Below are positions 1,420 through 47,300 of a stretch of DNA of 64,000 nt, piece after piece (position 1 is the stretch's first letter; each line of letters opens with the position of its first letter). Source of the DNA: Candidatus Coatesbacteria bacterium (GTDB lineage Bacteria > JAFGND01); assembly GCA_016927185.1 (NCBI GenBank), contig JAFGND010000035.1:11887-75886 (forward strand). The letters are read 5' to 3'. The translations under genes were made by a program, and so were the position numbers. The notes under the pieces were generated by a model. It had not been told where the DNA came from. It worked only from the letters and a program-made list of their open reading frames with translations, and did no database searches.

Positions 1420-1433
1420 AACATTTATAAAAT

Positions 1434-4182: not shown

Positions 4183-4184
4183 TT

Positions 4185-7787: not shown

Positions 7788-7883
7788 CAAAGTGAAAAGG
7801 CTTTTTGAGTAAAGTTTTGTCAAGAGGCTAATTTACTTGACATAAACCATATATAGACTTGGAGTATAGCAAGTATTGATAAT

Positions 7884-13087: not shown

Positions 13088-13214
13088 GTTTTTCACTGAA
13101 AGCATACAACATAATCCTGAATAAAATTCATAACCATCTTCAAATTACTTGACAAATTGACGTTTAAAATTCGCAAAAGCATGAAAAATCCCAATCAGAT
13201 TTAGGGAGGTTATT

Positions 13215-14660: not shown

Positions 14661-14671
14661 AGGAGTAAAAC

Positions 14672-15073: not shown

Positions 15074-15093
15074 GAATTAGGGAGCGATCGATA

Positions 15094-31862: not shown

Positions 31863-31877
31863 CTATGCTCCTCTCTT

Positions 31878-33935
31878 TTATCCCACTTCAATTCCATAAA
31901 AATCAAGTTCTTCTTTAGAATGTTCATAAGGACAGAATTCAAATTCACCAGAAATATAACCATGTACAGGACATATACTGAAAGTTGGTGTTAATGTGAA
32001 ATAGGGTAAATGAAATTGCTCTGCTATTCTTCTAACAAGAAGTTTACAGGTATTCAGATCATTTACTCTTTCACCAAGAAATGCATGAAAAACAGTACCT
32101 CCAGTATATAATGATTGAAGCTTCTCCTGATGGCGTAATGACTGGAAAAGATCCTTATTCGAGTTTACTGGCAGATGTGTCGAATTAGTATAGTATGGAT
32201 GGTTTTTGCCAGCTGTCTTTATATTGTTGTATTTTTCAATATCCTTGTTTGCAAGCCTGTAGCTTGTTCCTTCTGCAGGAGTAGCCTCAAGGTTTAAAAG
32301 AATTCCATTTTCTTTTTGAATGTTGTTAAGCTTATTTTTTAAAAAATCCAGGGTTTTTTCTGCCAATGACAAACCATTTGTAGTTTCAATACTTTCATTT
32401 ATAAGGTTCAAGCAGGCTTCATTCATTCCAATTATTCCAATAGTGGAAAAATGATTATTCCAGTATGTTTTATCTCTTGAGCATATATTCCTCAGATAAA
32501 ACCTGGAATATGGATACAGACCTTGCTGTGTAAAGTTTTCCAGTAATTTTCTTTTGATTTTCAAGGAATCCACCGCTAATTCAATATGTGCCGAAAGCTT
32601 TTGAAAGAAACCTTCCTCACTTGTAGATGTATAAGCTGCTCTTGGTAAATTGATAGTAACAACACCTATTGATCCTGTTAAAGGATTTGCACCAAATAAG
32701 CCTCCTCCTCGCCTTAGGCTATCATCAGAATTTTCATCAACAAGTCGTAAGGATCTTTTCCTGAGTTCCCTGTTATCGAGTCTGAGTCTGCAACACATGC
32801 TTCTTGCATCTTCAGGATGCATGTCACTGTTTATGAAATTTGAGAAATATGGAATGCCATATTTTGCAGTCATTTCCCATACAAGATCAAGGTTTTTGTT
32901 ATCCCAATCAAAATCTTTTGTTATATTATAGGTAGGAATTGGAAATGTGAAGATTCTCCCTTTTGCATCACCCTGCATCATAACTTCTGCGAATGCTCTA
33001 TTTATCATATCCATTTCGTTCTGGAAAGCTGCATATGTTTTATCCTGGGGCTTTCCTCCAATAATAACAGCCATATTTTTTAAATAGGATGGACATACAA
33101 GATCGAATGTGATGTTTGTAAATGGTGTTTGAAAACCAACTCTTGTAGGTACATTAAGGTTAAAAATGAACTCCTGCATTCCCTGAACAACATCTCTGTA
33201 ATCTAGCTTGTCATAATATATGAATGGTGCCAGCAGGGTGTCAAAATTTGAAAAAGCTTGTGCTCCTGCAGCTTCTCCTTGTAATGTATAAAAGAAATTC
33301 ACTATTTGTCCAAGCAAGCTGCAATAATGTTTTGCTGGACCGCTTTCTATTTTTCCAGAAACTCCCTTCAAACCATTCATTATCAAATCAAGCAAATCCC
33401 AGCCACAACAATAAACTGATAACTGACCTAAATCATGTATATGGAAGTCTCCAGTTTGATGAGCTTCTCTTATTTCTGGGGGATAAACTTTCTCCAGCCA
33501 GTAATTAGAAGAAATTATTGAAGTAACAAAGTTATTTAATCCCTGGAGAGAATAACCCATATTAGAGTTTTCTTTCACACGCCAGTCCACTTGATTCAAG
33601 TAATTATCCACTAATCCAAGTGTATCGTCGAAAAGAGCTTTTGTGTTCCTGAGTGTTTCATGCTGTGCTCTATAAATGATATAGGCTTTTGCAACATCAG
33701 CTAGTCCCTCATTTATCAACATCTTTTCGACTAAATCCTGAACATTTTCCACAGTTGGAACTCTATTGTCTTTATAAATGACTCCTAGTATAGAAACTAC
33801 CTGACTTGATATTTTTTTTGCAGTTTCCATATCTTCTTTGCCTATTGCTTTCGTTGCTTTATATATTGCCTGAGTAATTTTTTCTTGATTGAAATCGGCA
33901 AGGGATCCATCTCGTTTACGAATCTGCCTGATCAT
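31878..33935 (-). CDS. nrdD: Anaerobic ribonucleoside-triphosphate reductase, large part (ATP-cone plus catalytic barrel), lacking the glycyl-radical tail
   Basis: ATP-cone MIRQIRKRDGSLADF. NrdD motifs CCRLRLDNRELRKR...GGGLFGANPLTGSIGVVTINLPR. The protein ends in a zinc-ribbon-like CPVHGY...CPYEH with no RxxGY. I place the start at the ATG at 33935. The track starts at an upstream TTG at 33965. Confidence 0.85.
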   Translation of the reverse strand: MIRQIRKRDGSLADFNQEKITQAIYKATKAIGKEDMETAKKISSQVVSILGVIYKDNRVPTVENVQDLVEKMLINEGLADVAKAYIIYRAQHETLRNTKALFDDTLGLVDNYLNQVDWRVKENSNMGYSLQGLNNFVTSIISSNYWLEKVYPPEIREAHQTGDFHIHDLGQLSVYCCGWDLLDLIMNGLKGVSGKIESGPAKHYCSLLGQIVNFFYTLQGEAAGAQAFSNFDTLLAPFIYYDKLDYRDVVQGMQEFIFNLNVPTRVGFQTPFTNITFDLVCPSYLKNMAVIIGGKPQDKTYAAFQNEMDMINRAFAEVMMQGDAKGRIFTFPIPTYNITKDFDWDNKNLDLVWEMTAKYGIPYFSNFINSDMHPEDARSMCCRLRLDNRELRKRSLRLVDENSDDSLRRGGGLFGANPLTGSIGVVTINLPRAAYTSTSEEGFFQKLSAHIELAVDSLKIKRKLLENFTQQGLYPYSRFYLRNICSRDKTYWNNHFSTIGIIGMNEACLNLINESIETTNGLSLAEKTLDFLKNKLNNIQKENGILLNLEATPAEGTSYRLANKDIEKYNNIKTAGKNHPYYTNSTHLPVNSNKDLFQSLRHQEKLQSLYTGGTVFHAFLGERVNDLNTCKLLVRRIAEQFHLPYFTLTPTFSICPVHGYISGEFEFCPYEHSKEELDFYGIEVG

Positions 33936-34177
33936 GCCCCATTTCCCCCTCTTTTGCAAAAACAAGCTTATAATTCCAAAAGAAATTTAGGTTTTTGCAT
34001 AAAACATGAAGGCAGGTTTGCTTCTCTTAAGACCATCTGTCAAGCAAAAAACGAAAAAAAATCTTCAAAATGTTAACGAATGTTATTAGGAAAGAATCTC
34101 TCTGTGCAATTAAAGAGATGGTGAACATGAATATATTGTAACACTATAATATTCAAGAATATATAAGAAAAGATAAC

Positions 34178-34897
34178 TTATTTATCAGCAGGTATCCCCT
34201 TTAATAACTTCATGATTTCAATATGGTTATTTACTTTTGCATAATCAAAAGCAGATAATCCACTCTTGTCTTTGAGTTTAATATCAGCTCCGTATTTGAT
34301 TAGCAATCCTGCAACTTTAGTGAATCCATTCTCACAGGCAATCATGAGAGTTGTTATACCTTCATTATCTTTTGCATTTATTTCAGCTTTGTTTTCAAGC
34401 AGAATTCTTACTATTTGAAAATTCCTGGCTGCAAGCATTAATGGAGTAGTACCATCATTTAATTTATGATTTACTGATGCTCCTTTCCTTATAAGAAGTT
34501 TAACTGCTTCTGTATGTTCATGGAGAATGGCAGACATCAATGGGGTGCCACCTCCAAGGTATTCCTTTTTGTTTACATCAGCTCCTTTTTTTGTGAGTAA
34601 CTCTATAATCTTTAATTCACCATTTGTACATGCTATAAGAAGTGGTGTACGTCCATCTTTGCTTGGTAAGTCAACTCTGGCTCCTTTTTCTACAAGCAAA
34701 ACAGCAATTTCAACAAACCCAAAACCTGATGCATAAGTTAAAGCACAAAATCCCATTTCATCAGAAGCTTCAGGATTGGCACCTTTTTGAAGGAGGGTTT
34801 TCACTGTTTCTATTTTATTCATCTTTACAGCTTCAAGTAATTCATTATCTAGAGGAGATGTGGAAAGCAGATAAATAAAGAGCATGCTTATATACAT
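34178..34897 (-). CDS. Secreted ankyrin-repeat protein (about 6 ANK repeats)
   Basis: Repeated G-x-TPL-x-A ... LL-x-GA-xVN ankyrin consensus, and an N-terminal hydrophobic signal. Confidence 0.7.
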   Translation of the reverse strand: MYISMLFIYLLSTSPLDNELLEAVKMNKIETVKTLLQKGANPEASDEMGFCALTYASGFGFVEIAVLLVEKGARVDLPSKDGRTPLLIACTNGELKIIELLTKKGADVNKKEYLGGGTPLMSAILHEHTEAVKLLIRKGASVNHKLNDGTTPLMLAARNFQIVRILLENKAEINAKDNEGITTLMIACENGFTKVAGLLIKYGADIKLKDKSGLSAFDYAKVNNHIEIMKLLKGIPADK

Positions 34898-35053
34898 TTA
34901 TTAAATCCTTGATAAAATGAAAAGGGAAGAACAATATCATATTACTATATGTCAATCAATTTTATATTACTTTTTCTTGACTATATTTGCTAAAATAGAA
35001 AACTGTTTACAGTTAGTTGATTTATTACAAACAATATAATAAGAGAGGGATTT

Positions 35054-36781
35054 ATGGATGACCAGAAACCTGTGAAAATGACAACAGCAGGAAAAATAAT
35101 TATTCTTTTTGTAATTGTTGCTATTGTTCTTGTTGGATTATATCTTGCCAGGAATATCATTTTCCCGAAATCATCACAAACATTATCTAAAGTGGATATG
35201 GACAAGTTCAAGAAAATGGAAGTTGAAAAGGTAAGTCCTCAAGGAATAACTACTGTTTCAGAATATAGTTATGTTCCAAGTTCAATCTTACCTCCTGTCA
35301 AGGGAACATCCAATTATAAATGGGACTCCAAGGAAAAAATAGTCAAATTCCCGATAAATGTCTGGATCGGCTGGCTTCCAATTGTTGCGGCTAATCATGG
35401 TTTCAAGGCAAACAAAGAATCGATTTTTTATCAGAAATATGGCTTCCAGGTTGAATTAACACTGATAGACAATCCCATTACCGCAAGGGATGCATTTGCA
35501 AGTGGTGAGACACATGTTTTATGGGGAACTCTTGATATGATGGTTTTATTTACGCCAGAACTCATGAAAGATTCTAGAACTGCCCCTAGAATATTTCAGC
35601 AAATAGACTGGTCTAATGGTGGAGATGGAATAGTATCAAGGGAAACCATAACCAGCATTAACGACTTGAAAGGAAGAACAATTGTTTTAGCCCAGAATTC
35701 TCCTTCAGAATATTTCTTATATAATTTATTGATATTTAGTGGTATCCAGCCTTCTGCGATCAAACCCAAGTATACTACTGACGCTTTCCAGGCAGCAACA
35801 GCTTTTGTTGCAGAACCTAGTATTGATGCATGTGTATCATGGGCTCCAGATATATATAATATAGAAAAGAAGGTTAAGGGGACAAAGATATTAACAACAA
35901 CCTCTCAAGCAAACAGAGTAATTGCAGATGTATGGGCAATGAGGGCAGATTTTGCAAGAGATCATCCTGAAGTGGCTAAAGGATTGGTTGCTGGTATATT
36001 CTATGCAATGGATCAACTGAAAGATCCTGTTTTCCTGGATAAGGCAATGAAATGGATGGCTACAGGATATAAAATGAAACCTGAAGAAATCAAAGGAATG
36101 CTCAATGATGCTCATTCCACTAACTTTGCCGAGAACAAGGATTTCTTCTTGAACAGAAATAATCCAACAAATTTTGAAAACACATGGAACAATATAACAT
36201 TGGTGTACAAGGAATTGAACAGGATTAAAGGGGATGTTACATTTGACAAGGTCATGGATTTCTCCATAATTCAACAGCTTGACAAAGATGGAATATTTAA
36301 GCACCAGAAAGACGAATATGTTACCAAACATGTATCAACATCTTACAGCAAACTCCAGGCAGAAAAACCTCTTCTCGTTCAGACAATAAGAATAAGCTTT
36401 TATCCTAATTCAGCAAATATTCATGAACCTCAGCATGATGAATTCGGCAAGCCTGTTGCTGATACAAAGTATGATCCTGAGGCTGATAAGATAATAGAGA
36501 CAGTAGGAAGACTTGCAAAGCAATATGACAGAGCTACAATACTTATTACTGGGCATACTGATAGTTCAATGAAGGGAACAGTCAATCCTATACTTGTACA
36601 GAAGTTGTCAGATGACAGAGCTAAAGCAGTAAAAGAAGCTCTCATAAAGAAATACAAATTTCCACCTGAGAAATTTGTTACAAAAGGATTGGGTTGGGAT
36701 CAACCTTCCAATCCTAATGATCCTCTTAATCAACCATTAAACAGAAGAGTAGAAATCTCAGTTTATCCAGCTGAACAATAA
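35054..36781 (+). CDS. Membrane-anchored ABC substrate-binding protein (NMT1/SsuA-like, NitT/TauT family) fused to a C-terminal OmpA-like peptidoglycan-binding domain
   Basis: An N-terminal TM helix. The central SBP has an SsuA/NMT1-like fold. The C-terminal ~110 aa (ILITGHTDSSMKGTVNPILVQKLSDDRAKAVKEALIKK ... NRRVEISV) match the OmpA/MotB C-domain pattern. The stop overlaps the permease start. Confidence 0.55.
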   Translation: MDDQKPVKMTTAGKIIILFVIVAIVLVGLYLARNIIFPKSSQTLSKVDMDKFKKMEVEKVSPQGITTVSEYSYVPSSILPPVKGTSNYKWDSKEKIVKFPINVWIGWLPIVAANHGFKANKESIFYQKYGFQVELTLIDNPITARDAFASGETHVLWGTLDMMVLFTPELMKDSRTAPRIFQQIDWSNGGDGIVSRETITSINDLKGRTIVLAQNSPSEYFLYNLLIFSGIQPSAIKPKYTTDAFQAATAFVAEPSIDACVSWAPDIYNIEKKVKGTKILTTTSQANRVIADVWAMRADFARDHPEVAKGLVAGIFYAMDQLKDPVFLDKAMKWMATGYKMKPEEIKGMLNDAHSTNFAENKDFFLNRNNPTNFENTWNNITLVYKELNRIKGDVTFDKVMDFSIIQQLDKDGIFKHQKDEYVTKHVSTSYSKLQAEKPLLVQTIRISFYPNSANIHEPQHDEFGKPVADTKYDPEADKIIETVGRLAKQYDRATILITGHTDSSMKGTVNPILVQKLSDDRAKAVKEALIKKYKFPPEKFVTKGLGWDQPSNPNDPLNQPLNRRVEISVYPAEQ

Positions 36782-37578
36782 TGGCATATATTACGGGAAA
36801 TAGAACTTACTGGGAGCGTTTCCTATGGGGAATGCTCCCTTTTATTATAGTACTGATTGTATGGTTTATTTTAACGCTAGGTAAGAATCCTGAAGACAGA
36901 ATATTAAGCCCGATTATTCTTCCAAGTCCACAAGAAGTTGTAAGGAGCATACCTAGTTTGTGGTTTGACCGTGAACTTACAAGAAATGCAATATGGAGTC
37001 TCCAGCGAGTCTTTTTTGGTTTTATTTTTGCTGCTATAATTGCAATTCCATTAGGATTGACAATGGCAGCATTTGGACAGATAAGGGCATTAGGAGAGCC
37101 TTTGATTGCAGTCACTTCATATCTCCCTATTGCTGCATTAGTACCATTAACTATGAGCTGGTTTGGAATGGATGAAACTCAGAAAATCGCATTCCTGGCT
37201 CTTGCAACTTTTATCTATTTAGCTCCACTTTCTTTTACTTCAGCAATGAAAGTGGATCAGGTTTATGTAAACACAGCTTATACTTTGGGAGCTAATAGAT
37301 GGCAGGTTTTGTATAAAGTTTTATTCATGATTGCAGCAGGAGATCTTTTCGATAATCTCAGAATGGCATTTGGAGTTGGCTGGACATACATAATTTTAGC
37401 TGAAATGGTTAATCTTGGTAATGGACTGGGAAGTTTGATATTGATTAGTGAAAGAAGAGGTCCAAGAGAGCATATTTATCTTGTATTGCTTAGTATAATT
37501 TTAATTGCATTTATAATTGATTATATCTGGAAAATGATAGGTAATGTTATCTTCCCCTACAGAAATCTAAAAAAATGA
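36781..37578 (+). CDS. ABC transporter permease (binding-protein-dependent, TauC/SsuC-like)
   Basis: 6-TM protein with the EAA-like loop of NitT/TauT permeases. Translationally coupled to both flanking genes. Confidence 0.75.
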   Translation: MAYITGNRTYWERFLWGMLPFIIVLIVWFILTLGKNPEDRILSPIILPSPQEVVRSIPSLWFDRELTRNAIWSLQRVFFGFIFAAIIAIPLGLTMAAFGQIRALGEPLIAVTSYLPIAALVPLTMSWFGMDETQKIAFLALATFIYLAPLSFTSAMKVDQVYVNTAYTLGANRWQVLYKVLFMIAAGDLFDNLRMAFGVGWTYIILAEMVNLGNGLGSLILISERRGPREHIYLVLLSIILIAFIIDYIWKMIGNVIFPYRNLKK

Positions 37579-38657
37579 TTATGAATGAAATAGAGAAGAA
37601 AGCTAATGAGCTTATGAAAAATGATACTCTCTTCAGGGAAGCAATTATCAAAATAGGAGATTCAAAAACCAGAGCAAAAGGTCAATCAGATCTTAATGCA
37701 TGGATAGATCAAACCAGGAATGTAAAAGATGCTGTAGAAATATCAGATTGGCTTTTCCCTGATAATTATAGAATATTAATAGATAATTATATGAATAAAA
37801 CAGAAAACAGGGAATGCATACAATCAACCTCAGAAATCGATGAAAAACCTCTTTCAATATGTATGGAAGCCAGGAATCTGGGAATGACTTTCGGGATTGG
37901 CACAAAGAAGGAATTCCGGGCTTTATATGATGTTAGCTTTGCTATAACTGATGTTCCTGACATTGGAGAATTAATATCTATAGTAGGACCTTCAGGATGT
38001 GGAAAATCAACATTACTAAATATTATTGCTGGTTTTGATGGGTATGTTCCACCAACTGAAGGAGAGCTGACAATACAGGGGAAATCAATAAAAGGTCCGG
38101 GTAAGGAAAGAGGAATGATTTTTCAGAAGTATTCATCTTTTCCCCATCTTAATGTTGAACAGAATTTATTGTTTGGATTTGAGGTTAATGAGGATTTCAG
38201 GAATATCTCCAAAATGGAGAAAAATGAATTAGTTAAAGAATGGTTGAATAAAGTTGGGCTTTTTGAACACAGATTCAAATATCCTTCACAACTTTCAGGA
38301 GGTCAACAGCAAAGAGTTGCAATTGCAAGGACTTTAATCCTTAAGCCAAGATTCATCTTGATGGATGAACCATTTAGTGCTCTTGATGAGCCAACGAGAC
38401 TTGAAATGCAGGAATTGCTTGTTAATCTTTATTTTGAAATTCAACCTACAATACTTCTAGTAACACATAGTATAACCGAGGCAGTTTACTTATCTGATAG
38501 AGTTTGGTTGATGGGGGGAAAACCTGGAACCATAAAAAGTGTCTTCAATGATATTATACCGCCTGTCAAGGGAATCAAACCAATTGTAGTACAGGAAGAA
38601 GCAAAATTCAAGGATTCGGTCAAGAAAGTGATGGAAGAATTCAGGAAAATTGAATAA
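37575..38657 (+). CDS. ABC transporter ATP-binding protein with a ~95-aa N-terminal extension
   Basis: Walker A GPSGCGKST, signature LSGGQQQRVAIAR, Walker B ILMDEPFSALD. The first ~95 aa have no recognisable domain. Confidence 0.8.
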   Translation: MIMNEIEKKANELMKNDTLFREAIIKIGDSKTRAKGQSDLNAWIDQTRNVKDAVEISDWLFPDNYRILIDNYMNKTENRECIQSTSEIDEKPLSICMEARNLGMTFGIGTKKEFRALYDVSFAITDVPDIGELISIVGPSGCGKSTLLNIIAGFDGYVPPTEGELTIQGKSIKGPGKERGMIFQKYSSFPHLNVEQNLLFGFEVNEDFRNISKMEKNELVKEWLNKVGLFEHRFKYPSQLSGGQQQRVAIARTLILKPRFILMDEPFSALDEPTRLEMQELLVNLYFEIQPTILLVTHSITEAVYLSDRVWLMGGKPGTIKSVFNDIIPPVKGIKPIVVQEEAKFKDSVKKVMEEFRKIE

Positions 38658-38659
38658 AA

Positions 38660-39544
38660 ATGGGATTTAAGAAATATTTCAAGGCAGCATTTAGTGGCTG
38701 GTTACCTCTTCCAGGATTAGGATTATTTCCAGTAAACTGGGTGTTACTAACAATTGTTATGCTTCTGACAATAATTGGTTTTTTTGCTGGAGGTCCTCTT
38801 GCGGGTTTGGGAATTTTTCTGGTGGCATCAGGTATTGATATAGGTTTAGTCCTTGCTTTAACATTTAGCAGCGGTTTTCAAAGGTTTATTGATAATATGG
38901 AACTTATATCAAGTGAAGAGGAAGAAGAAAAACATGGCAAGCAAAAACTTGATATGATGTTAAGAGATCTTGATGATTATTCCAAAGTCAAATTCCTTGC
39001 CTTGAAAAATAAAATAGATGAAGTGGTAAGACTTTTCAATCAGCTTCATCCTGAAGCTCAGGACCTTGAATTATCAAAGGTAAGAGGTTTGAATACACTT
39101 CTTAATACTTATTATCAACTTCTGTTTTCAAGGCAGTTAATAAATAACAATATAAAACCAAAGGAAGAAGAAGATTTGAATTCACAGATAGAAGCTCTGG
39201 AAAGAAGAAACTTGAAAGAAAAATCTGAGAGAGTGAAAAAGAGTTTTCAGGGAAGACTTGAAATACTAAGAAAGAGAGCAGAAAAGATATCTCAGTTGAA
39301 TGAAGTAGCAAGGCTTGTAGAAAGTGAATTAAACAGGATTCTTGATCAAATTGAACTAATAAAAGCAGATGCATTAACTGCAAAAGACCCTGATACTTTT
39401 TCTCAAAGACTAGATGCTGTTTCTGCTGAATTCGAGACAAACTCTGAATGGGCTAAACAGCAATACCAGCTGCTTGATGATTTGAGTTCTCTGAACCTCC
39501 AATCCAATGATATTATAGGGATTGAGAAAAAGCAAAAAGAATGA
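38660..39544 (+). CDS. Membrane protein (3 N-terminal TM helices) with a long acidic coiled-coil cytoplasmic domain; function unknown
   Basis: Hydrophobic N-terminus (LPLPGLGLFPVNWVLLTIVMLLTIIGFFAGGPLAGLGIF...), then an EEEEE linker and heptad-rich sequence. Its start is 3 nt after the ATPase stop. Confidence 0.4.
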   Translation: MGFKKYFKAAFSGWLPLPGLGLFPVNWVLLTIVMLLTIIGFFAGGPLAGLGIFLVASGIDIGLVLALTFSSGFQRFIDNMELISSEEEEEKHGKQKLDMMLRDLDDYSKVKFLALKNKIDEVVRLFNQLHPEAQDLELSKVRGLNTLLNTYYQLLFSRQLINNNIKPKEEEDLNSQIEALERRNLKEKSERVKKSFQGRLEILRKRAEKISQLNEVARLVESELNRILDQIELIKADALTAKDPDTFSQRLDAVSAEFETNSEWAKQQYQLLDDLSSLNLQSNDIIGIEKKQKE

Positions 39545-40431
39545 TTTCAAAATTCCTGATTTATTTTAGAGCAATAAGAGGATTGGAACTTTTCTTGATG
39601 CTTGGATCTCCTGTTTTAGGATTGCTTTTTGCCAGGCAATCTGAGGGACACAAACATTTTCATATTCTTCATTACTTGATTTTTCTGGTCTCAACTTATT
39701 GCCTTGCAGGGCATGTTTATGCATATAATAGCTGGGCAGGTTTGAAAGCTGACTTGAAGGATAGAAGCAAAGAGAAGTTCCCCCTTATGGAAGGCAAAAT
39801 ATCTATAAAGGAGATGTATACTCTATCTTTCATATTACTTCTCACAGCTTTATTAGGTTACTTTGTATTAAACAAGCATCTTGTTATAGTATCCCTCATA
39901 AATGCATTATTATGGGTTTTGTATTGTGATCCTCGTATTTTGTTTAAGTCAAAACCTATTTTAGGTTCATTAATTCACTTTTTTGCAGGCATATTAAATT
40001 TCCTGCTTGGATATCTTTTCATTAAAAATCTTGATATGAATGGAATTTTGTTAGGATTATACTTTACCATAATTTTCGTTGGAGGTCATCTAAACCATGA
40101 AATTAGAGATTATGAAGCAGATAAAATAAACAATTATAAAACCAATGCAATATGCTGGGGGAAAAAGCTGATTTTTATTATGTCTTTTTCACTCTTTTCC
40201 TATTCAAATATTCATCTCATTTTGTTAGCAAAAAACAAAATTGTTGACATTAATATCATTGTCCCTTTGTTAATTTTATATCCTTTATATATATATTTCT
40301 CATATATAACTATGCGAGAAGGGTTAAAATTCCAGGAAATGGATAATTTCAGGAATAGATATAGAATATTATATGCATTATATGGAATTTACATGGCAGT
40401 TTATTTATTATATAAACAAGTAATAATATGA
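39541..40431 (+). CDS. Polytopic membrane protein, UbiA-prenyltransferase-like with divergent Asp-rich motifs
   Basis: ~9 predicted TM segments in 296 aa. The first motif is degenerate (YNSWAGLKADLKDRSKEKFPLMEG compared with UbiA NDxxDxxxD...RPL). The second motif (RDYEAD) is retained. It overlaps the upstream gene by 4 nt. Confidence 0.4.
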   Translation: MISKFLIYFRAIRGLELFLMLGSPVLGLLFARQSEGHKHFHILHYLIFLVSTYCLAGHVYAYNSWAGLKADLKDRSKEKFPLMEGKISIKEMYTLSFILLLTALLGYFVLNKHLVIVSLINALLWVLYCDPRILFKSKPILGSLIHFFAGILNFLLGYLFIKNLDMNGILLGLYFTIIFVGGHLNHEIRDYEADKINNYKTNAICWGKKLIFIMSFSLFSYSNIHLILLAKNKIVDINIIVPLLILYPLYIYFSYITMREGLKFQEMDNFRNRYRILYALYGIYMAVYLLYKQVII

Positions 40432-41408
40432 ACTACTTCTCTGCATTGCATAATTTATTTATTAAAAGAAACCCAATCTTGATATATCATAAACCAACTC
40501 TTTCATGTAATTGCAAATGTGAAACCTGTGATACTTGGAGCCTGGATGATGAGAATATAATGTCACTAGAAATGATTTTCAGGTTGCTGGAAGATGCAAG
40601 GAGATCTGGAATACAGAATTATACCGCCTGGGGGGGAGAACCTTTATTATACAGTGATCTGGACAAAATATTCTATCATACCAAAAAAATGGGAATGAAG
40701 AATTCGATTTGCACAAATGCCTACTTGCTTAAAGAAAAAACAAAGGAAATTGCTCCAAATCTGGATTTAGCTCTAATATCAATAGATGCAATAGGTGAGG
40801 ATCATGATAGAATAAGGGGAGTGGAAGGATTATATAAAAAAATACTTGAAGGACTGGAGGAGCTGAGAAAGTATAGCAAAGTAAGGATTAATATCTGGAC
40901 AACAATCAATCCTGTAAGCAGATATCAAATTGAAGAAATCTTGAAAGTTGCAGAATTCTACAAAGTAATAGTAGAGTTTTTCCCTATTGCTCCAATAGAA
41001 GGTTATAATGATAAGATGATACTAAAAAAAGAAGAATTGATAGATGTTTTCAAGGAAATCAAGAGCTTGAAGAATAAGGATTATCCTGTTGGAAATACTA
41101 ATTACTACCTGGATTTGGTTATAAACCAGAAACCTTTCAAATGCAATTTCCCTCTCATAAGTTTGTTCGTAAATCCTGATGGTACTATTTATACTTGTGA
41201 AGAAGGTGGAGCAAGGATAATAAAGAAGTGGGGCAAGTATCCTGAACTTACTTTAGCAAAGCTCTTATCAAGTAATGAATATCATGAAACTGTTAAAAAA
41301 ATGGAGAATTGCAATAAATGCTTCTTACCTTGCGTAGGAGAAACATCAGGATTCCTCCCCTTGCAAATAATCAGGAAAAAGATTTCCATATTGAATTTAT
41401 CAAGCTAA
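40428..41408 (+). CDS. Radical SAM enzyme of the MoaA/PqqE-like family with a C-terminal SPASM/twitch-type Cys cluster
   Basis: The CxxxCxxC motif SCNCKCETC near the N-terminus, GGEPLL, and C-terminal cysteines (C-x18-C ... CNKCFLPC). It overlaps the upstream gene by 4 nt. Confidence 0.65.
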   Translation: MNYFSALHNLFIKRNPILIYHKPTLSCNCKCETCDTWSLDDENIMSLEMIFRLLEDARRSGIQNYTAWGGEPLLYSDLDKIFYHTKKMGMKNSICTNAYLLKEKTKEIAPNLDLALISIDAIGEDHDRIRGVEGLYKKILEGLEELRKYSKVRINIWTTINPVSRYQIEEILKVAEFYKVIVEFFPIAPIEGYNDKMILKKEELIDVFKEIKSLKNKDYPVGNTNYYLDLVINQKPFKCNFPLISLFVNPDGTIYTCEEGGARIIKKWGKYPELTLAKLLSSNEYHETVKKMENCNKCFLPCVGETSGFLPLQIIRKKISILNLSS

Positions 41409-41506: not shown

Positions 41507-43360
41507 ATGAAAAGAGTAATATCAACTAGTCTTTTCTTTTTGTTCTTCTTATTTTTGATTGATTTGAAATTATTATCAGCGATAGATTGGGAACTTTACA
41601 AGACAAGAATTGATATCAAGAAAAACAATAAAAAATGGACTGCATGTGAAACAAGTATTTCAAGATTGCCAGAAGAAATCAGGGAATATTGTCTTGGGGG
41701 GATAAAAAGAAGTCCAATTGATTTGACAGATGGCAATGAATTTAAAAGTTCCGGGAAATTTCCTGAAAAATTTGACTGGAGAAATGTAAATGGAAGGAAC
41801 TTTACTACTCCAATAAAGGATCAGAAAAATTGTAAAGCTGACTGGGCATTTGCAACATTTGCTGCTGTTGAAACTCAGATAAAAATATTCCTTGATCAAG
41901 ACTTGATAATGCCTGATTTATCTGAGCAATACGTTGTTTCAACTACTTTTACTAAAGGAGATTGCTCTGGTTGTGGATTTTATGAACTAGCTGAATGGAT
42001 GAAAACAAATGGTGTTGTCTGGGAATCATGTTTTCCATACGAAGCAAGAAATGCCAACTGAAGTGAGAGATGCACTGACTGGGCTTACTGTCAGCAGACC
42101 ATTTCACAGTTAACAAGAGTTCCTTCAGCAAATAACAATTTTGATTTAATGAAGGAAGCAATTGCAACAAAGGGTCCTGTTTTTGCTATGATGAAGTTTT
42201 TTAATGATTTCCAGTATTACAAAGGTGGAATATATGAATGTAATGAGAATTCTGGATACTTAGGTTTGATATCTGTTTGTTTAATAGGTTATGACAATTA
42301 TAGTAATTGCTGGATAGGGAAAAACAGCTGGGGAACTGAATGGGGTGAAAAGGGCTATTTCAGATGTAGAATAGGAGGAGCCGATAGTTTAGGTAATTTA
42401 GGTCAAACATTTGTAGAAATAGCGGATGTAACAAATCATTTATGGTATATGACACCACTACCAGCAAGGTATTATGTTTCAGGTAAAAAAACCAATATTG
42501 AATGGCATAGTCTTGGTGTAAACAAGATCAATATCTACCTGTCAACTGATGGAGGCACTTCTTCTTCATGGACTGAAATCGTAAAAGACATGGATGCATC
42601 AAGTCAGACATATGAATGGATAATACCTGAAGTTGAATCCTCACAATGCAAGATAAAAATTATTGATAGTGAACATACAAGGGAAGGTTCTAAATGTTCA
42701 ATCGGGGCAGCTAAAACTGATGGAGTATTTGGAATAGGAAAAGAAAGATCTGTAAGATTGATTTATCCAAAAGGAGGAGAGACTTTTTATAATTCTCACA
42801 GATATTATATATATTGGGATTGTACCAAAAATGTTAGCAAGGTGAATATATATGGATCAACTGATGATGGTTCAACATGGCTTGAAGAAAAAGTCATAAG
42901 TAATGGAGAGGCACAAAAAAAATCCTTCTTATGGACTGTGGATACAAGGAAATTTCCTCCCACAACAAAAGGGAGAATGAAGATTACTGATACAGAATAT
43001 GAGATTGATGTAAATGATATTAATGATGATATATTTACTGTTTCAGATGAAATAATTGGATTCAACGATACAAAGCATAATAAGCATTTACCTGAAGAGC
43101 TTTCTTTGACAGCAGATCCAAATCCATGCAGAAACAGGTTATTGAATATAAGATTTTCTCTTCCTAAGAATACTTGCATAAGCATTAAAATAATTAATCT
43201 GATTGGAAAAACTGTCACAATAATTTTGGATAAAGAGAATTATGGAAAAGGGAATTATATAATCCACTGGCTTCCAATCAATCTAGCATCTGGTATTTAT
43301 TTCATAGAGATGAAATCAGAACAAAGAATATTGAATAAAAGTTTCTTGTTTGTAAAATAG
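41507..43360 (+). pseudogene. Secreted papain-like (C1) peptidase homologue with mutated catalytic dyad, interrupted by one in-frame TGA (42059-42061), plus a T9SS C-terminal domain
   Basis: Track ORFs 41507..42061 and 42149..43360 are in the same frame, separated only by a TGA. The joined translation aligns along the papain fold (DWR...TPIKDQ...CKADWAF ... FPYEARNAN*SERCTDWAYC ... KGPVF ... YYKGGIY ... NSWGTEWGEKGYFRC). The catalytic Cys is Asp (CKADW compared with CGSCW) and the catalytic His is Ile (LISVCLIGY). The C-terminus ends ...GIYFIEMKSEQRILNKSFLFVK, a T9SS CTD. Confidence 0.55.
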
Positions 43361-44322: not shown

Positions 44323-47300
44323 ATGAATTTGCCCAAACGTTCTGTTGCTTGGGTAATTTTGCTTTTCAGTTTAGCATTTGTTATTACTTGTGCAAGAGAT
44401 AATCCTTTTGATGAAAATGGAGATAGTTACAAAGGTCCTTATGATGTACCAAAACTTGAAACACCTGCCAATGGGGCTACACTTGAGAGGAATTCTACTA
44501 CTTTAACATGGAAACTGAATAATCCTTCTGGCATGAAAGTCAGATATGAAGTATATCTTGGTACTGATGGAAATTTATATAAAGCTAATCAAGGCTTTCT
44601 CGATAGTACATATTTTCAAGTCAGTAATTTGGAGCCTGATGAGAAATATAGATGGCAGATAGTTGCTATAAGCGAAAGAGAAACTAATGAGAAAAGTGAT
44701 ATTTGGGAATTCACAAGCGGAAGACAAGCAGAAAATCAATCTCCGATTATTGAAATTACAAATCCAGGGGATCATGATGCATATGCAGTAACATATTTTG
44801 ATATAAGCTGGTACAGCGATGATCCTGATGGAGATACTTGTACTGTTACATTGAAGTATGATAAAGACAAGAATCCAAACAATGGATTTGAAGGAACTAT
44901 AATCGAGAATTATCCTGACAGGAAAGAATATAGATGGGATGTATCAAGTGTTCCTGAAGGGGGTTATTATATATACGCATTGATTGATGATGGAAAAAGC
45001 ACGAGATCCATAAGACCTGTAACAATCAATAATATTAAATCTCAAAATGTAAATTTGAAAAGTAATCTTAATAAAAAGGAAGTTGTTAATGAAATAAATG
45101 TCTTGAAGGATGGAAATGTAAGTAACCTTAACTATAAAAGAGGTAAACTCAATCCAACCAGAGCAATCCTAACACCTAAAAACAATACTGGTAATATTTC
45201 AACAGATATTAAAACCCCTGATAAAATTGGACTTACTGGAGAAAACTACAGTAATTCAAAGGTTATTGTTGACAGATCCAACAAGAATCACCCTCCAAAT
45301 CCACCTTATAATCCAAATCCCCGCGATGGATCAAGTAATAATGCTTTACAGCAGAGCTTGAGGTGGGATTGTGAAGATCCTGATGGGAATGATCTGACAT
45401 ATGATATTTTCTTTGGAAGAGAAGGGGATATGGTTAAGGTAGCTGACAAAGTACCTAATAAGAATTATGAAACTCAGAAACTTACCAAATCTACATCTTA
45501 TAAATGGCAAATTATTGCCTTTGATTCAAGAGGAGATTCAACTATTGGAAGAGTATGGACTTTTACTACAACAAATGCAGATTTTGAAGCATATGATCCT
45601 GATCCAGAAAATAATGCAATAGGTATTCCTCTTGATAAGTTTGTTTCATGGGATTGCAATGACATGAATGCAACATTTGATGTTTATATTGGAACTTCCC
45701 AGAATCCACAACGTCAATCAAGAAGACAATCGGATAAGGAATACGATCCAGTACTGGAACCGGATACAACTTATTACTGGAAAATAGTATCATTCTCTTC
45801 TGGAGATAGCATTACAGGACCATTATGGAGTTTCAGGACAAAAAGAGCCAATAATCATCCTCCTAATCCTCCTTATGATCCAGATCCCGAGAATAACGCT
45901 ACAGATATTCCATTGAACAAGGCAATGACATGGAAGTGTGAAGATCCAGACTCATTTGAAATGGGAGGTCTTCTTGGACAATCTTTGAGAAAAAACAGAA
46001 GGTATTTGAACAATGATCTTGATCAGAGAGATTCACTCTGGTATTCCGTTTATTTTGGAACAACATCCAATCCAGAATATGTCGGGAAAGTGGAAATAGC
46101 ATTTTACAAACCTCCTGAGGATCTTTCTTCAAATACAAAATATTATTGGAGAATAGTAGCGCATGATTCTCAAGGAGATTCTGCTAGTGGATCACTATGG
46201 AATTTTACAACAGGGACTCAGCGGGAATTATGGATAAGGGTAACAAAACCACCTGCTGGTGGAGCTGAAGCAGATTCATTATATACAATAGAATGGGAAT
46301 ATGATGCTCCAGGAAGTTCTTCTCCAAAAGTCAGCTTATATTATGATACTGATTCTACTCAAAACGCTAATGAAGTTTTAATAAAAGAAAATATACTGGC
46401 TCAGGATAAAGCTTATACATGGAATTGCAAGGAAATACCTGAGGGTTCATATTATATTCTGGCAATAATTGATGATGGCTTGATGAAGACAAGCAGATAC
46501 TATCTTAAGAAATCAAGTATCATAGATATAACAAAACCTATTAAAAAGCTTTTGAAGCCAGAAACTTCATTTGATTATTCTGATGGAGCTCTTAAATTAC
46601 AGCATTATACAAAACCGGGAATAACAATAACTCAACCTCCTGCAGAAGGGGCAACTGCTGATTCTGTCTATAGAATTGAATGGACATATAACACATATGA
46701 AGGAACTTCCCCAATTGTATATCTCTATACGGATAATGATTCAATTCCTGGAGGAGAAGTCCTGATACAAGCTGCTATCCCTACAGATAGTTTAGGATAT
46801 ACTTGGAATTGTGATTCTATGCCTAATGGCTCATGGTATATTAAAGGGGTGATTGATGACAGGCATACTGGAAAAACAACCAGGATTATCTTCAAATTGC
46901 ATAACAACGTGGCAAGACCTGATACTACTTATGACTATTCAGACGGAAAATTGACTATTGATCATGGTTATTATACACCTCCAACAATAACAGTTACAGA
47001 TCCTCCCGAAGAAGGGGCAACTGCTGACAGTACATATACAATAAAGTGGAATTTTTCAGCTAGCCAGGAAACCTCACCAGTTGTAGATCTTTATTATGAT
47101 AGTGATAATCAAAGGAACGGAAATGAAGTATTAATTCAAACAGAAATTCCTGCAGATAGTCTTGAGTATGAATGGGATTTGACAGGTCTTTCAGAAGGAT
47201 CATATTATGTATTGGCAGTAATTGATGATAAACATACTTCTTCATTCAAGTACTTACCAAAGAGGTTTATAGCAAAACCAGATTCTTCATTTGACTATTC

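What the first reader, a model, noticed from the sequence alone, without database searches (positions are those of the whole stretch)
35054..41408. Translationally coupled six-gene operon pairing an ABC importer with a divergent UbiA-like protein and a SPASM-type radical SAM enzyme
Six co-directional genes have stop/start overlaps or 0-3 nt gaps (36781/36781, 37575-37578, 38657/38660, 39541-39544, 40428-40431). They encode a TM-anchored NMT1/SsuA-type substrate-binding protein fused to an OmpA-like domain, a permease, an ATPase with a 95-aa N-terminal extension, a 3-TM coiled-coil protein, a UbiA-like membrane protein whose first Asp-rich motif is degenerate, and a MoaA/PqqE-like radical SAM enzyme with extra C-terminal cysteines. 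I cannot map this combination onto a described pathway. The menaquinone, heme o and ether-lipid routes each use UbiA plus radical SAM chemistry but with different enzymes. It may be an uptake-plus-modification module for a small aromatic or isoprenoid compound, or a membrane-lipid modification. A secreted pseudo-protease with a T9SS CTD follows 98 nt downstream.
Basis: partly seen in the sequence, partly recalled or inferred. Interest (0 to 1): 0.7.

Follow-up and report, generated by a model that had tools for sequence, protein, structure and literature searches.

The report
ABC importer module abutting UbiA–radical-SAM pair
The six tightly packed genes are real, but in every related locus recovered they occur as two separate units: a four-gene ABC importer with a cell-wall-anchored binding protein, and an uncharacterised pair of a UbiA-type membrane transferase and a radical SAM enzyme that probably modifies an isoprenoid lipid.

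Summary
Observation confirmed. Six co-directional ORFs sit at exactly the stated coordinates, with -1, -4, +2, -4 and -4 nt junctions. Only the first gene has a Shine-Dalgarno sequence. The source is a Candidatus Coatesbacteria MAG.

No related locus I recovered holds all six genes; they occur as two modules.

(A) SBP(NMT1)-OmpA, permease, N-extended ATPase and the TM/coiled-coil gene 4 recur together in L093-L094. There the proteins are 45%, 40%, 51% and 25% identical to ours. A PspA gene lies upstream and no UbiA or rSAM gene is present. The SBP-OmpA fusion is a large family (195 cluster representatives at E<=1e-30).

(B) The UbiA-like/rSAM pair recurs with overlapping junctions in L012 and L038. 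In L012 a geranylgeranyl-reductase-family gene follows it. However, 51 of 53 metagenomic relatives of the rSAM have no UbiA gene within 5 kb.

Tight junctions are the norm in this genome (14 of 31 elsewhere in the window), so they say little about shared function.

The UbiA fold is confirmed, closest to archaeal DGGGP synthase. Its degenerate first Asp motif (NSWAGLKAD) is conserved within its clade. The rSAM is not MoaA. It is nearest the uncharacterised PTO1314 family and HpnH, and all ten of its cysteines are family-invariant.

The function of the pair is unknown. It most likely modifies an isoprenoid lipid. Interest is moderate.

The parts
35042..35050 (+). Shine-Dalgarno sequence (AGAGAGGGA) of gene 1. 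It is the only SD-like sequence in the six-gene run.
   Evidence: Read directly from the sequence. The leader and cluster contain no Rfam element.
35054..36781 (+). Module A, gene 1: substrate-binding protein of the NitT/TauT (NMT1/SsuA) type. It has one N-terminal TM/signal-anchor segment (residues 14-32) and a C-terminal OmpA-like peptidoglycan-binding domain (GHTD...LSDDRAKAV).
   Evidence: Pfam NMT1_2, NMT1 and OmpA all pass their cut-offs. Nearest solved structures are taurine-binding TauA (41 bits) and OmpA-like domains. Motifs and TM segment. The fusion family has 195 cluster representatives at E<=1e-30, many of 510-607 aa spanning both domains.
36781..37578 (+). Module A, gene 2: ABC importer permease with 6 predicted TM segments.
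   Evidence: BPD_transp_1 51.3 bits. Nearest NCBIfam models are SaoP (112 bits) and TauC (104 bits), both below cut-off. 40% identical to the permease in L093.
36812..36839 (+). Strong hairpin (12-bp stem, 7 G-C pairs) followed by TTTTATTATA, lying 31 nt inside the permease ORF just after the SBP stop codon. It may be an attenuator that sets the SBP:permease expression ratio.
   Evidence: Consensus scan only. Function is inferred, not shown.
37575..38657 (+). Module A, gene 3: ABC ATPase with intact Walker A (GPSGCGKS), signature (LSGG), Walker B (ILMDEP) and H-loop (VTHS). It carries an N-terminal extension of about 100 aa.
   Evidence: ABC_tran 108 bits, domain from residue 131. Motifs. 51% identical to the L093 ATPase, which also has an extension of about 100 aa that is unrelated in sequence.
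38660..39544 (+). Module A, gene 4: membrane-anchored (2-3 TM) all-helical coiled-coil protein of unknown function. It belongs with the ABC genes, not with the UbiA-like gene.
   Evidence: No Pfam, NCBIfam or PHROG match. AF2 model: helical, pLDDT 63; no Foldseek hit in PDB better than E = 0.07. A collinear homolog in L093 (25% identity over 231 aa, pairwise E = 5e-12) has the same size, the same position and the same 4-nt overlap with the ATPase stop, and no UbiA or rSAM gene follows it.
39541..40431 (+). Module B, gene 5: UbiA-superfamily intramembrane transferase. The first Asp-rich motif is reduced to N63-x7-D71(-x2-D74) (NSWAGLKADLKD). The second motif is intact (GHLNHEIRD190YEAD194K).
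   Evidence: PF01040 83.2 bits. AF2 pLDDT 86.8; Foldseek top hits are DGGGP synthase 7bpu/6m31 and AfUbiA 4tq3, TM 0.71-0.76. Motif conservation.
40428..41408 (+). Module B, gene 6: radical SAM enzyme with a C27-x-C29-x-C31-x2-C34 motif and a SPASM/DUF3463-like C-terminal domain (C239-x12-G-x4-C257, C295-x2-C298-x3-C302). All 10 of its cysteines are invariant across the family.
   Evidence: PF04055 73.7 bits; DUF3463 30.1 and SPASM 20.0 are both just below cut-off. TIGR03961 PTO1314 149.9 bits against a 306 cut-off; HpnH 74.2 against 225. Invariant columns. Cys positions.

Best explanation
The six genes are probably co-transcribed and translationally coupled in this Coatesbacteria genome. They are nevertheless a juxtaposition of two evolutionarily independent modules, not a dedicated six-step system.

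Module A (35054-39544) is a NitT/TauT-family ABC importer. Its binding protein is held at the inner membrane by an N-terminal anchor and tied to peptidoglycan by a C-terminal OmpA-like domain. It works with a permease, an ATPase with a variable N-terminal extension, and a conserved membrane-anchored coiled-coil accessory protein (gene 4). The substrate is unknown; by family it should be a small polar or anionic solute of the sulfonate, nitrate, taurine or urea-related kind. Relatives lie next to PspA, TelA and vWA genes, which hints at a role in envelope stress. That link is an inference.

Module B (39541-41408) is a two-gene unit. A UbiA-fold intramembrane transferase, closest to archaeal DGGGP synthase and AfUbiA, binds a polyprenyl (di)phosphate substrate in the membrane. 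A SPASM/DUF3463-type radical SAM enzyme, nearest the uncharacterised PTO1314 family and adenosylhopane synthase HpnH, then carries out radical chemistry on that isoprenoid product. The likely chemistry is C-C bond formation or addition to a double bond.

Shown here: the folds, the motifs, the independence of the modules, and the recurrence of the pair. Inferred: the isoprenoid substrate, the order of the reactions, and any metabolic link between the two modules.
For: Module A without module B.
- L093 and L094 carry PspA, then SBP-OmpA (45% identity), permease (40%), N-extended ATPase (51%) and a 297-aa gene-4 homolog (25% identity, E = 5e-12, 4-nt overlap with the ATPase stop). An AAA ATPase and, in L093, a PMT-type glycosyltransferase follow; no UbiA or rSAM gene is present. 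L095 ends inside the gene after the SBP.
- L089-L091 show SBP-OmpA followed by a permease.
- A Vibrio plasmid carries an SBP-OmpA (25%), ATPase (41%) and permease (28%) alongside TelA, vWA and a second SBP-OmpA.
- The fusion family is large.

Module B as a unit.
- L012: a UbiA C-terminal fragment (36% identity over 44 aa, matching exactly the end of our gene 5) overlaps by 4 nt an rSAM that is 48% identical to ours. A TIGR02032 geranylgeranyl-reductase-family gene follows.
- L038: a UbiA-like gene overlaps by 1 nt an rSAM 39% identical to ours.
- The contig carrying P0038 (UbiA-like, 57% identical) has overlapping genes on both sides, but no DNA was available.
- In an NJ tree, the window rSAM, P0002, P0003 and the L012 rSAM form one clade.
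- In the wider UbiA subfamily, an rSAM or B12-rSAM gene is adjacent in L024, L027, L029, L030, L032 and L033.

Support for an isoprenoid substrate.
- GGR-family genes lie next to the pair in L012 and next to the UbiA-like gene in L011.
- The closest characterised full-length relative of the rSAM is HpnH.
- The UbiA-like model matches DGGGP synthase best.

Tight junctions are generic in this genome.
Against: In this genome the two modules are physically fused. The gene 4 stop overlaps the UbiA start (ATGA), there is no internal SD, and no terminator lies between them. A lineage-specific functional link therefore cannot be excluded.

Only one independent long-contig lineage (L093/L094) shows module A's downstream end. 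The closest relatives (55-91% identity) sit on contigs of 1-1.6 kb that do not reach across the module boundary.

Module B is itself weakly conserved. Of 53 rSAM relatives, 51 have no UbiA gene within 5 kb, and the 44%-identical UbiA-like gene has no rSAM neighbour.

No substrate or product has been shown for either module. No GGPP-specific or lipid-backbone gene lies in the cluster, and the FPP synthase at 49477-50394 is 8 kb away.
Confidence: 0.65

Rival explanations
1. All six genes form one dedicated system. The ABC importer takes up a small aromatic or isoprenoid-related precursor. The UbiA-like enzyme prenylates it and the rSAM then modifies it. Gene 4 acts as a scaffold.
For: The genes form a contiguous, overlapping, co-directional run with a single SD at gene 1 and a 98-nt gap plus a fresh SD only after gene 6. 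No strong terminator lies between genes 4 and 5.
Against: No locus among roughly 85 examined combines the two gene sets. Gene 4 travels with the ABC genes in L093. Tight junctions join unrelated genes throughout this window. NitT/TauT binding proteins are known for small polar solutes rather than lipophilic ones; this point rests on family knowledge and was not tested here.
Confidence: 0.15
2. Module B is a bacterial version of the archaeal ether-lipid branch. In this reading it is a DGGGP-synthase-like prenyltransferase plus a Tes/Grs/Gms-like lipid-tail radical SAM (with GGR in some genomes), and it makes archaeal-type or membrane-spanning isoprenoid lipids.
For: The best structural matches of the UbiA-like model are DGGGP synthases (TM 0.72-0.76). 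A GGR-family gene follows the pair in L012. The nearest named rSAM family, PTO1314, is named after a locus of the archaeon Picrophilus torridus; that origin is from my own knowledge and was not tested here. Several rSAM relatives lie on archaeal-looking contigs (L066, L071, L072). Archaeal lipid tails are built by rSAM enzymes (PMC13459092; bioRxiv 10.1101/2025.10.20.683597).
Against: DGGGPS models score 27 bits against a 296 cut-off. The Tes model is not among the window rSAM's top 25 matches, and GDGT-MAS scores only 31 bits. Two of the three Asp residues in the first, Mg/diphosphate-binding motif are missing. The part of the window I annotated contains no GGGP synthase or G1P dehydrogenase, and a lipid A acyltransferase points to an ordinary diderm envelope.
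Confidence: 0.1
3. The UbiA-like protein is a polyprenyl-phosphate glycosyl/phosphoribosyl-type transferase, like DPPR synthase. It would make a lipid-linked donor for envelope glycan modification, and the rSAM would tailor the transferred group.
For: Members of the same UbiA subfamily sit next to large polytopic or GT-C-type membrane proteins: PMT_2+TPR and 569/812-aa proteins in L038, YfhO in L042, DUF6077 plus MBOAT in L007/L025/L031/L034, and a ~570-600-aa protein (about 10 TM in the two members checked) in 9 loci. The DPPR phosphoribosyltransferase 8j8j is among the significant fold matches.
Against: No such membrane protein lies next to the pair in the window. DPPR-transferase models score only 22 bits. 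The window already encodes a much better DPPR-transferase-like paralogue at 55946-56881 (233.8 bits).
Confidence: 0.07
4. The rSAM is ordinary MoaA, or a SPASM peptide (RiPP) maturase, and its position next to the UbiA-like gene is incidental.
For: Sources annotate relatives as 'Molybdenum cofactor biosynthesis enzyme' or 'MoaA/NifB/PqqE/SkfB family'. Peptide-maturase models give matches of 41-49 bits. Most relatives are stand-alone genes.
Against: MoaA models score 53-58 bits against cut-offs of 231-325, and no moaC or moaE gene is in any context. I noticed no precursor-peptide ORF, leader peptidase or exporter next to the gene, but I ran no dedicated small-ORF search. The full-length matches are to PTO1314 and HpnH. 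The pair recurs with overlapping junctions in three independent loci (window, L012 and L038).
Confidence: 0.03

Closest known systems
NitT/TauT-family ABC importers (TauABC, SsuABC, NrtABCD, urea-carboxylase-associated Uca transporter)
   Same: The window has an NMT1/SsuA-type binding protein, a BPD_transp_1 permease and an ATPase whose best models are the nitrate and taurine transporter ATPases (186 bits each). The gene order is SBP, permease, ATPase.
   Different: The SBP is membrane-anchored and fused to an OmpA-like peptidoglycan-binding domain. The ATPase has an N-terminal extension of about 100 aa. A conserved TM/coiled-coil fourth gene is attached. No equivalog cut-off is reached, so the substrate cannot be assigned.
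Archaeal DGGGP synthase and AfUbiA (UbiA superfamily; PDB 6m31, 7bpu, 4tq3)
   Same: The fold matches (TM 0.71-0.76) and so do the best sequence hits in PDB (47 bits). The second Asp-rich motif and the invariant basic residues K136, R271 and R275 are conserved within the clade.
   Different: The first motif, NDxxDxxxD, is reduced to N-S-W-A-G-L-K-A-D. This N-x3-G-x3-D form is shared by most of a broad, phylogenetically scattered subfamily that also has a GHLxHE signature before the second motif. DGGGPS family models are far below cut-off.
HpnH, adenosylhopane synthase (TIGR03470/DUF3463), which acts after squalene-hopene cyclase
   Same: HpnH is the closest experimentally characterised full-length relative of the rSAM (74 bits; 21-26% identity over more than 90% of the length). 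It shares the DUF3463-type Cys-rich C-terminal domain and acts on an isoprenoid double bond (mechanism from PMC13459092).
   Different: The score is far below the HpnH cut-off of 225. No hopanoid genes (shc, hpnG) are nearby. The window rSAM has extra invariant cysteines, C29 and C95. Its partner is a UbiA-type transferase, not a cyclase.
PTO1314-family radical SAM proteins (TIGR03961; hypothetical equivalog, function unknown)
   Same: This is the best-scoring named family for the window protein (149.9 bits) and for its relatives P0004 (107.5) and P0006 (121.1), matched over the full length.
   Different: All scores are well below the 306-bit cut-off, so this is a sister group and not a member. 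The family itself has no known function, and my full-text search found no paper mentioning it.

Membership tests
UbiA prenyltransferase superfamily (PF01040) | Profile score above the Pfam gathering threshold | tested here: met
   83.2 bits against a 34.2 cut-off, residues 37-252.
UbiA prenyltransferase superfamily (PF01040) | UbiA fold: a bundle of 8-9 TM helices around a central cavity | tested here: met
   AF2 pLDDT 86.8 and pTM 0.85. Foldseek against PDB returns 15 matches at E<=1e-3, all UbiA-family structures, with TM up to 0.76.
UbiA prenyltransferase superfamily (PF01040) | First Asp-rich motif NDxxDxxxD, which binds Mg2+ and diphosphate | tested here: not met
   The window has N63-S-W-A-G-L-K-A-D71, so only the N and the last D are kept. 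This form is conserved in P0038, P0039, P0040 and P0041. The canonical motif is kept in the more distant P0042, L007 and L038.
UbiA prenyltransferase superfamily (PF01040) | Second Asp-rich motif (DxxxD) | tested here: met
   E187-x2-D190-x3-D194, inside the invariant GH..D...D block.
DGGGP synthase (PRK12882/PRK12883) | Score above the NCBIfam equivalog cut-off | tested here: not met
   27.0 bits against a 296 cut-off.
Radical SAM superfamily (PF04055) | CxxxCxxC cluster motif and profile score above threshold | tested here: met
   C27-x3-C31-x2-C34; 73.7 bits against a 29.5 cut-off.
SPASM-domain radical SAM (PF13186) | Profile above threshold, and the seven-Cys pattern CX9-15GX4C ... CX2CX5CX3C ... 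C | tested here: inconclusive
   20.0 bits against a 21.5 cut-off. C239-x12-G252-x4-C257 fits the first element. The second element is C295-x2-C298-x3-C302, one Cys short. Seven non-core Cys are invariant in total when C29 and C95 are counted. Cluster content cannot be determined from sequence.
PTO1314 family rSAM (TIGR03961) | Score above the curated cut-off | tested here: not met
   149.9 bits against a 306.05 cut-off.
HpnH adenosyl-hopene transferase (TIGR03470) | Score above the cut-off, and a hopanoid gene context (shc, hpnG) | tested here: not met
   74.2 bits against a 225.05 cut-off. DUF3463 scores 30.1 against 31.3. No hopanoid gene appears in the window or in the contexts of relatives.
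MoaA GTP 3',8-cyclase (TIGR02666/TIGR02668) | Score above the cut-off, and a moaC/moaE context | tested here: not met
   55.6 and 58.3 bits against cut-offs of 284 and 325. No moa genes lie near any relative.
NitT/TauT-type ABC importer | NMT1/SsuA-type SBP, BPD_transp_1 permease and ABC_tran ATPase in one gene cluster | tested here: met
   All three Pfam domains pass their cut-offs. The same three genes recur together in L090 and L093.
NitT/TauT-type ABC importer | Assignment to a substrate-specific equivalog (TauA, SsuA, NrtA or the urea-associated SBP) | tested here: not met
   The best is TIGR03427 at 65.4 bits against a 333.9 cut-off; SsuA_fam scores 47.4 against 163.5. No riboswitch is present in the leader.
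OmpA-like peptidoglycan-binding domain (PF00691) | Profile above threshold, and the conserved D/R peptidoglycan-contact motif | tested here: met
   42.3 bits against a 27.2 cut-off; GHTD...LSDDRAKAV at residues 500-526. Actual binding to peptidoglycan cannot be tested here.

The most novel reading that the evidence does not exclude
The UbiA-like protein has lost most of its first Mg2+/diphosphate site. It would hold a polyprenyl substrate in the membrane for the partner rSAM, a sister of HpnH and the PTO1314 family. The rSAM would then form a new C-C bond on the isoprenoid, either by 5'-deoxyadenosyl addition as in HpnH or by tail cross-linking as in Tes or Gms. The product would be a so far undescribed class of modified isoprenoid lipid in candidate-phylum bacteria (Coatesbacteria and unidentified high-GC lineages). 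In Coatesbacteria this production would be coupled in expression to an envelope-tethered importer.
Probability: 0.15. Interest if true: 0.7.

Novelty: new variant of a known kind. Interest (0 to 1): 0.35.

Why it matters
If the UbiA-like/rSAM pair makes a modified isoprenoid lipid, it would extend radical-SAM lipid tailoring to poorly known bacterial phyla. So far that chemistry is known from hopanoids and archaeal tetraethers. It would also assign a function to two sizeable uncharacterised families: the N-x3-G-x3-D UbiA subfamily and the relatives of the PTO1314 rSAM family.

The work also defines a recurrent four-gene ABC importer. It has a peptidoglycan-tethered binding protein and a coiled-coil accessory protein, and it tends to lie near envelope-stress genes (PspA, TelA).

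For genome scanning there is a practical lesson. In compact genomes like this one, stop/start overlaps are too common to be read as evidence of a shared pathway.

Tried and rejected
- MoaA, PqqE or RiPP maturase identity for the rSAM: rejected on scores and on context.
- Futalosine pathway (MqnP with MqnC/E), heme O and chlorophyll routes: no supporting family scores for the window proteins and no matching context.
- Gene 4 as a TelA- or PspA-like protein. hhalign against the Vibrio TelA and the neighbouring 257-aa TM protein gave nothing. Pfam, NCBIfam, PHROGs, a PDB profile search and Foldseek gave nothing significant.
- A riboswitch or leader RNA that would reveal the transporter's ligand: none found.
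- Horizontal acquisition of module B judged from composition. The UbiA gene has GC 0.295, against 0.33-0.37 for its neighbours. That is expected for a Phe/Ile/Leu-rich membrane protein, and GC3 is not deviant, so this is not informative.
- Literature searches for PTO1314, TIGR03961 and DUF3463 found nothing. Searches combining UbiA, radical SAM and HpnH or GGR, and searches for SBP-OmpA fusions, described no matching system.
- Short contigs of the closest relatives were checked (the P0038 contig and L012). P0002, P0003, P0039 and P0043 are also on contigs of 1.1-1.4 kb. None can show the boundary between the modules.
- The AFDB Foldseek library was unavailable.
- A plasmid search with the UbiA-like protein found no match.

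Full report
**1. Observation**

The junctions are a 1-nt overlap (TAATG), a 4-nt overlap (ATGA), a 2-nt gap, and two more ATGA overlaps. Only gene 1 has a Shine-Dalgarno sequence (AGAGAGGGA); genes 2-6 have A/T-rich upstream sequence. The next gene, at 41507, follows a 98-nt gap and has its own AGGAGG. Co-transcription and translational coupling are therefore plausible. An identical copy of the rSAM protein (P0001) comes from a 75.9-kb contig of a Candidatus Coatesbacteria MAG.

**2. How much the tight spacing means**

In this 64-kb window, 19 of 36 co-directional junctions are overlaps or gaps of 3 nt or less. Fourteen of the 31 junctions outside the cluster are tight. They include unrelated pairs: GatB next to a beta-lactamase-like gene, DnaE next to a 244-aa ORF and then an NrdG-like activase, and a lipid A acyltransferase next to a TsaB-like gene. 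A run of five tight junctions is only mildly unusual. By itself it is weak evidence for a shared pathway.

**3. What each gene is**

- Gene 1 has one N-terminal TM segment, an NMT1/SsuA-type binding domain and an OmpA-like domain with an intact GHTD...LSDDRAKAV motif.
- Gene 2 is a six-TM BPD_transp_1 permease.
- Gene 3 is an ABC ATPase with all the canonical motifs and an N-terminal extension of about 100 aa.
- No substrate-specific NCBIfam cut-off is reached. The best SBP model, the urea-carboxylase-associated SBP, scores 65 bits against a 334 cut-off. No riboswitch lies in the leader.
- Gene 4 has 2-3 TM segments and a helical coiled-coil domain. It matches no family, and its AF2 model (pLDDT 63) has no significant fold match.
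- Gene 5 is a true UbiA-fold protein. Pfam scores 83 bits and the AF2 model has pLDDT 86.8. All 15 significant Foldseek hits are UbiA-family structures, led by DGGGP synthase and AfUbiA at TM 0.71-0.76.
- Gene 6 is a radical SAM enzyme. Its best named match is the uncharacterised PTO1314 family (150 bits against a 306 cut-off), followed by HpnH (74 bits against 225). MoaA models reach only 53-58 bits. Its best full-length hits among plasmids of cultured bacteria lie mainly in Burkholderiales, at 21-23% identity. The one I checked is 40% identical to a JGI-annotated HpnH.

**4. The first Asp motif**

In the window protein and its nearest relatives (P0038-P0041), the NDxxDxxxD motif is N-S/G-W/F-A/F-G-x-x-A/S-D. 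N63 and D71 are invariant, and D74 is present in five of six sequences. The more distant P0042 keeps NDWADYYHD.

Across 22 loci from GTDB species representatives, most members of this subfamily have N-x3-G-x3-D together with a characteristic GHLxHExxDxxxDK second motif. The loci span Bacteroidales, Delongbacteria, Bdellovibrionota, Spirochaetales, Verrucomicrobiota, Actinomycetes, Caldilineaceae, Vulcanimicrobiota and one Methanolobus. A minority keep ND.xD.

The degeneration is therefore a conserved trait of the subfamily, not decay. It implies an altered Mg2+/diphosphate site.

**5. The rSAM cysteines**

The window rSAM has exactly ten cysteines. All ten are invariant across the seven-sequence family alignment: C27, C29, C31, C34, C95, C239, C257, C295, C298 and C302. 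C239-x12-G-x4-C257 fits the first SPASM element. C295-x2-C298-x3-C302 is a shortened second element. At least one auxiliary cluster is likely, and two are possible. The SPASM profile itself scores just below threshold (20.0 against 21.5).

**6. Is the six-gene arrangement conserved? It is not.**

The rSAM:
- The rSAM has few close relatives in the word-indexed search of the 5.8-billion-protein database. Those at 36-39% identity are stand-alone genes, and the 39% ones are from WOR-3 and TA06 bacteria. In L001-L003 the gene lies between an M14 peptidase with a T9SS tail and a convergent gene that is uvrB in L001.
- A metagenome scan returned 53 loci at 26-40% identity. Only L038 has an adjacent UbiA gene, and L042 has one 5 kb away. 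The SBP-binding domain/permease set is absent from all of them.

The UbiA-like protein:
- At 44% identity (L005/L006) it is stand-alone.
- At 33% identity it lies next to a GGR-family flavoprotein (L011), or inside a DUF6077-UbiA-unknown-unknown-MBOAT cluster (L007).

The ABC genes:
- The SBP-OmpA fusion is a large family. Against 1.84 billion representatives there are 3,144 hits, 195 of them at E<=1e-30, and many are 510-607 aa long and cover both domains.
- In L093 and L094 the order is PspA, SBP-OmpA (45%), permease (40%), ATPase (51%, also N-extended), then a 297-aa protein. That protein overlaps the ATPase stop by 4 nt and is a collinear homolog of gene 4 (25% identity over 231 aa, E = 5e-12). 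An AAA ATPase comes next, then in L093 a PMT-type glycosyltransferase. No UbiA or rSAM gene is present.

Gene 4 therefore belongs to the transporter module.

**7. The pair as a unit**

- L012 comes from a high-GC organism and its rSAM is 48% identical to ours. The 53 codons upstream match precisely the C-terminus of our UbiA-like protein (FRxxYRxLY; 36% over 44 aa). They overlap the rSAM start by 4 nt. The gene overlapping the rSAM stop belongs to the geranylgeranyl reductase family (TIGR02032; 84.6 bits for a 155-aa fragment).
- L038 has a UbiA-like gene with a canonical NDIQDVEHD motif but the subfamily's GHLHHE...D...D signature. It overlaps by 1 nt an rSAM that is 39% identical to ours. 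The pair is flanked by large polytopic membrane proteins and a PMT_2+TPR glycosyltransferase.
- In an NJ tree, the window, P0002, P0003 and the L012 rSAM form one clade. L038 and L042 fall in the sister clade, together with members that have no UbiA neighbour.
- In the wider UbiA subfamily, a different and more generic rSAM of about 300 aa directly follows the UbiA-like gene in L024, L027, L029 and L033. B12-rSAM genes abut it in L030 and L032.

Association of this UbiA subfamily with radical SAM chemistry is thus a recurrent theme, although a loose one.

**8. Mechanistic reading**

Shown here: two modules, the folds, the motifs, and the recurrence of the pair.

Inferred:
- Module A imports a small polar solute. 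Its binding protein is tethered between the inner membrane and peptidoglycan. Gene 4 is an accessory or regulatory partner. Neighbours in relatives (PspA; TelA and vWA on a Vibrio plasmid) suggest a link with envelope stress.
- Module B acts on an isoprenoid. The UbiA-like enzyme binds a polyprenyl (di)phosphate. Its second Asp motif and invariant K136, R271 and R275 are conserved. The rSAM then modifies the product. By analogy with HpnH, this would be radical addition to a prenyl double bond. By analogy with Tes or Gms, it would be C-C coupling of lipid tails (PMC13459092). GGR-family neighbours in L012 and L011 fit a polyprenyl substrate.
- A competing idea is that the UbiA-like protein makes a polyprenyl-phosphate-linked donor for GT-C-type enzymes, as DPPR synthase does. 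The membrane-protein neighbours elsewhere support this, but the window context does not.

**9. Comparison with known systems**

Reviews and recent work on lipid-modifying rSAM enzymes list Tes, Grs, Gms, HpnH/J/P/R, the GDGT methylases and the desaturase Ted. None is a small non-B12 rSAM coupled to a UbiA-type transferase. The window proteins meet the superfamily definitions (UbiA, radical SAM, NitT/TauT ABC importer, OmpA). They fail every specific family cut-off I tested: DGGGPS, PTO1314, HpnH, MoaA, TauA, SsuA and the urea-associated SBP.

**10. Verdict**

The proposed single 'uptake-plus-modification' system is not supported by comparative context. The cluster is best read as two modules brought together in one transcription unit of a compact genome.

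What remains interesting is the uncharacterised UbiA-like/rSAM pair with its conserved, crippled first Asp motif. To a lesser degree, so is the four-gene importer with a peptidoglycan-tethered binding protein.

I rate novelty as a new variant of a known kind, and interest at 0.35.

The main uncertainty is coverage. The closest relatives (55-91% identity) sit on contigs too short to cross the module boundary. Only one independent lineage shows the downstream end of module A.

Noticed in passing
window 41507-43360 (TGA at 42059-42061): The two papain-family (Peptidase_C1) ORFs are one gene in a single reading frame, interrupted by a single in-frame TGA (...ARNAN*SERCTDW...). The protein continues into a Kre9/KNH Ig-like domain and a T9SS C-terminal sorting domain. 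The catalytic Cys position reads D (NCKADWAF) and the catalytic His also appears to be lost, so this is a pseudo-protease. The TGA could be a nonsense mutation, a sequencing error, or a recoded (Sec/Cys) codon, since it is one substitution away from TGT or TGC.
   Followed up: partly
window 36812-36839: A 12-bp stem (7 G-C pairs) followed by a T-run lies 31 nt inside the permease ORF, immediately after the SBP stop codon. It may be an intra-operon attenuator that raises SBP expression relative to the membrane components.
   Followed up: no
window 49477-50394 and 55946-56881: An FPP-synthase-like polyprenyl synthetase (NF045485, 331 bits) and a second UbiA paralogue lie 8 and 15 kb downstream. 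The paralogue is decaprenyl-phosphate phosphoribosyltransferase-like (233.8 bits against a 234 cut-off). It sits 1 nt after an fn3-domain gene.
   Followed up: partly
L024 about 1-10300, L027 3452-15173, L033 3472-11932: A large cluster is shared by a Delongbacteria MAG, a Bacteroidales MAG and a Methanolobus (archaeal) MAG. It contains several B12-binding radical SAM genes, a 450-aa ABC-type ATPase, a protein of about 220 aa, a polytopic membrane protein of about 575 aa (about 10 TM), the N-x3-G-x3-D UbiA-like gene, a 300-aa rSAM and a membrane protein of about 190 aa. It looks like an undescribed lipid or envelope biosynthetic cluster that may have been transferred between domains.
   Followed up: partly
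L092 (Vibrio penaeicida plasmid pIFO15640, locus 5443-15219): This cluster encodes a hypothetical protein, an ABC ATPase (41% identical to the window ATPase), an SBP-OmpA fusion, a vWA protein, a PstS-type SBP-OmpA fusion, a TM protein, a TelA 'toxic anion resistance' protein, a urea-type SBP and a permease. It suggests that OmpA-tethered binding proteins belong to a wider envelope-stress-associated system.
   Followed up: partly
L093 8778-9518 and 14235-18226: A PspA/IM30 gene lies directly upstream of the four-gene ABC module. A 576-aa AAA ATPase and a 752-aa PMT-family glycosyltransferase lie directly downstream.
   Followed up: no
L007, L025, L031, L034 (for example L007 49-7504): UbiA-subfamily members that keep the canonical ND.xD motif sit in a conserved cluster: DUF6077 (664 aa), the UbiA-like gene, one or two paralogous proteins of about 346 aa with no Pfam match, and an MBOAT acyltransferase. 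In L025 the MBOAT gene lies about 6 kb upstream on the opposite strand. The loci with a named source (L025, L031, L034) are Bacteroidales or Lentimicrobiaceae. This is probably an envelope polymer modification locus.
   Followed up: no
L063, L068, L069, L073 (95-aa ORF upstream of the rSAM, opposite strand): A small thioredoxin/glutaredoxin-like protein (CxxC; MKIKLFTHKGCAKCRRL...) is encoded divergently from the rSAM relative in four loci. It could be the enzyme's reductant partner.
   Followed up: no
window 31020-33965 (- strand) and 34178-34897 (- strand): An NrdD-like anaerobic ribonucleotide reductase and its small radical SAM activase lie just upstream. The activase sits 1 nt from the gene for DNA polymerase III alpha. 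An ankyrin-repeat protein is divergently oriented to the cluster.
   Followed up: no
window 44323-49344: This gene encodes a 1,673-aa secreted protein made of many repeats of about 100 aa (motifs such as 'DYSDGTL' and 'TPPxITIT'). It ends in a WD40 beta-propeller, which is an unusual architecture for a bacterial surface protein.
   Followed up: no
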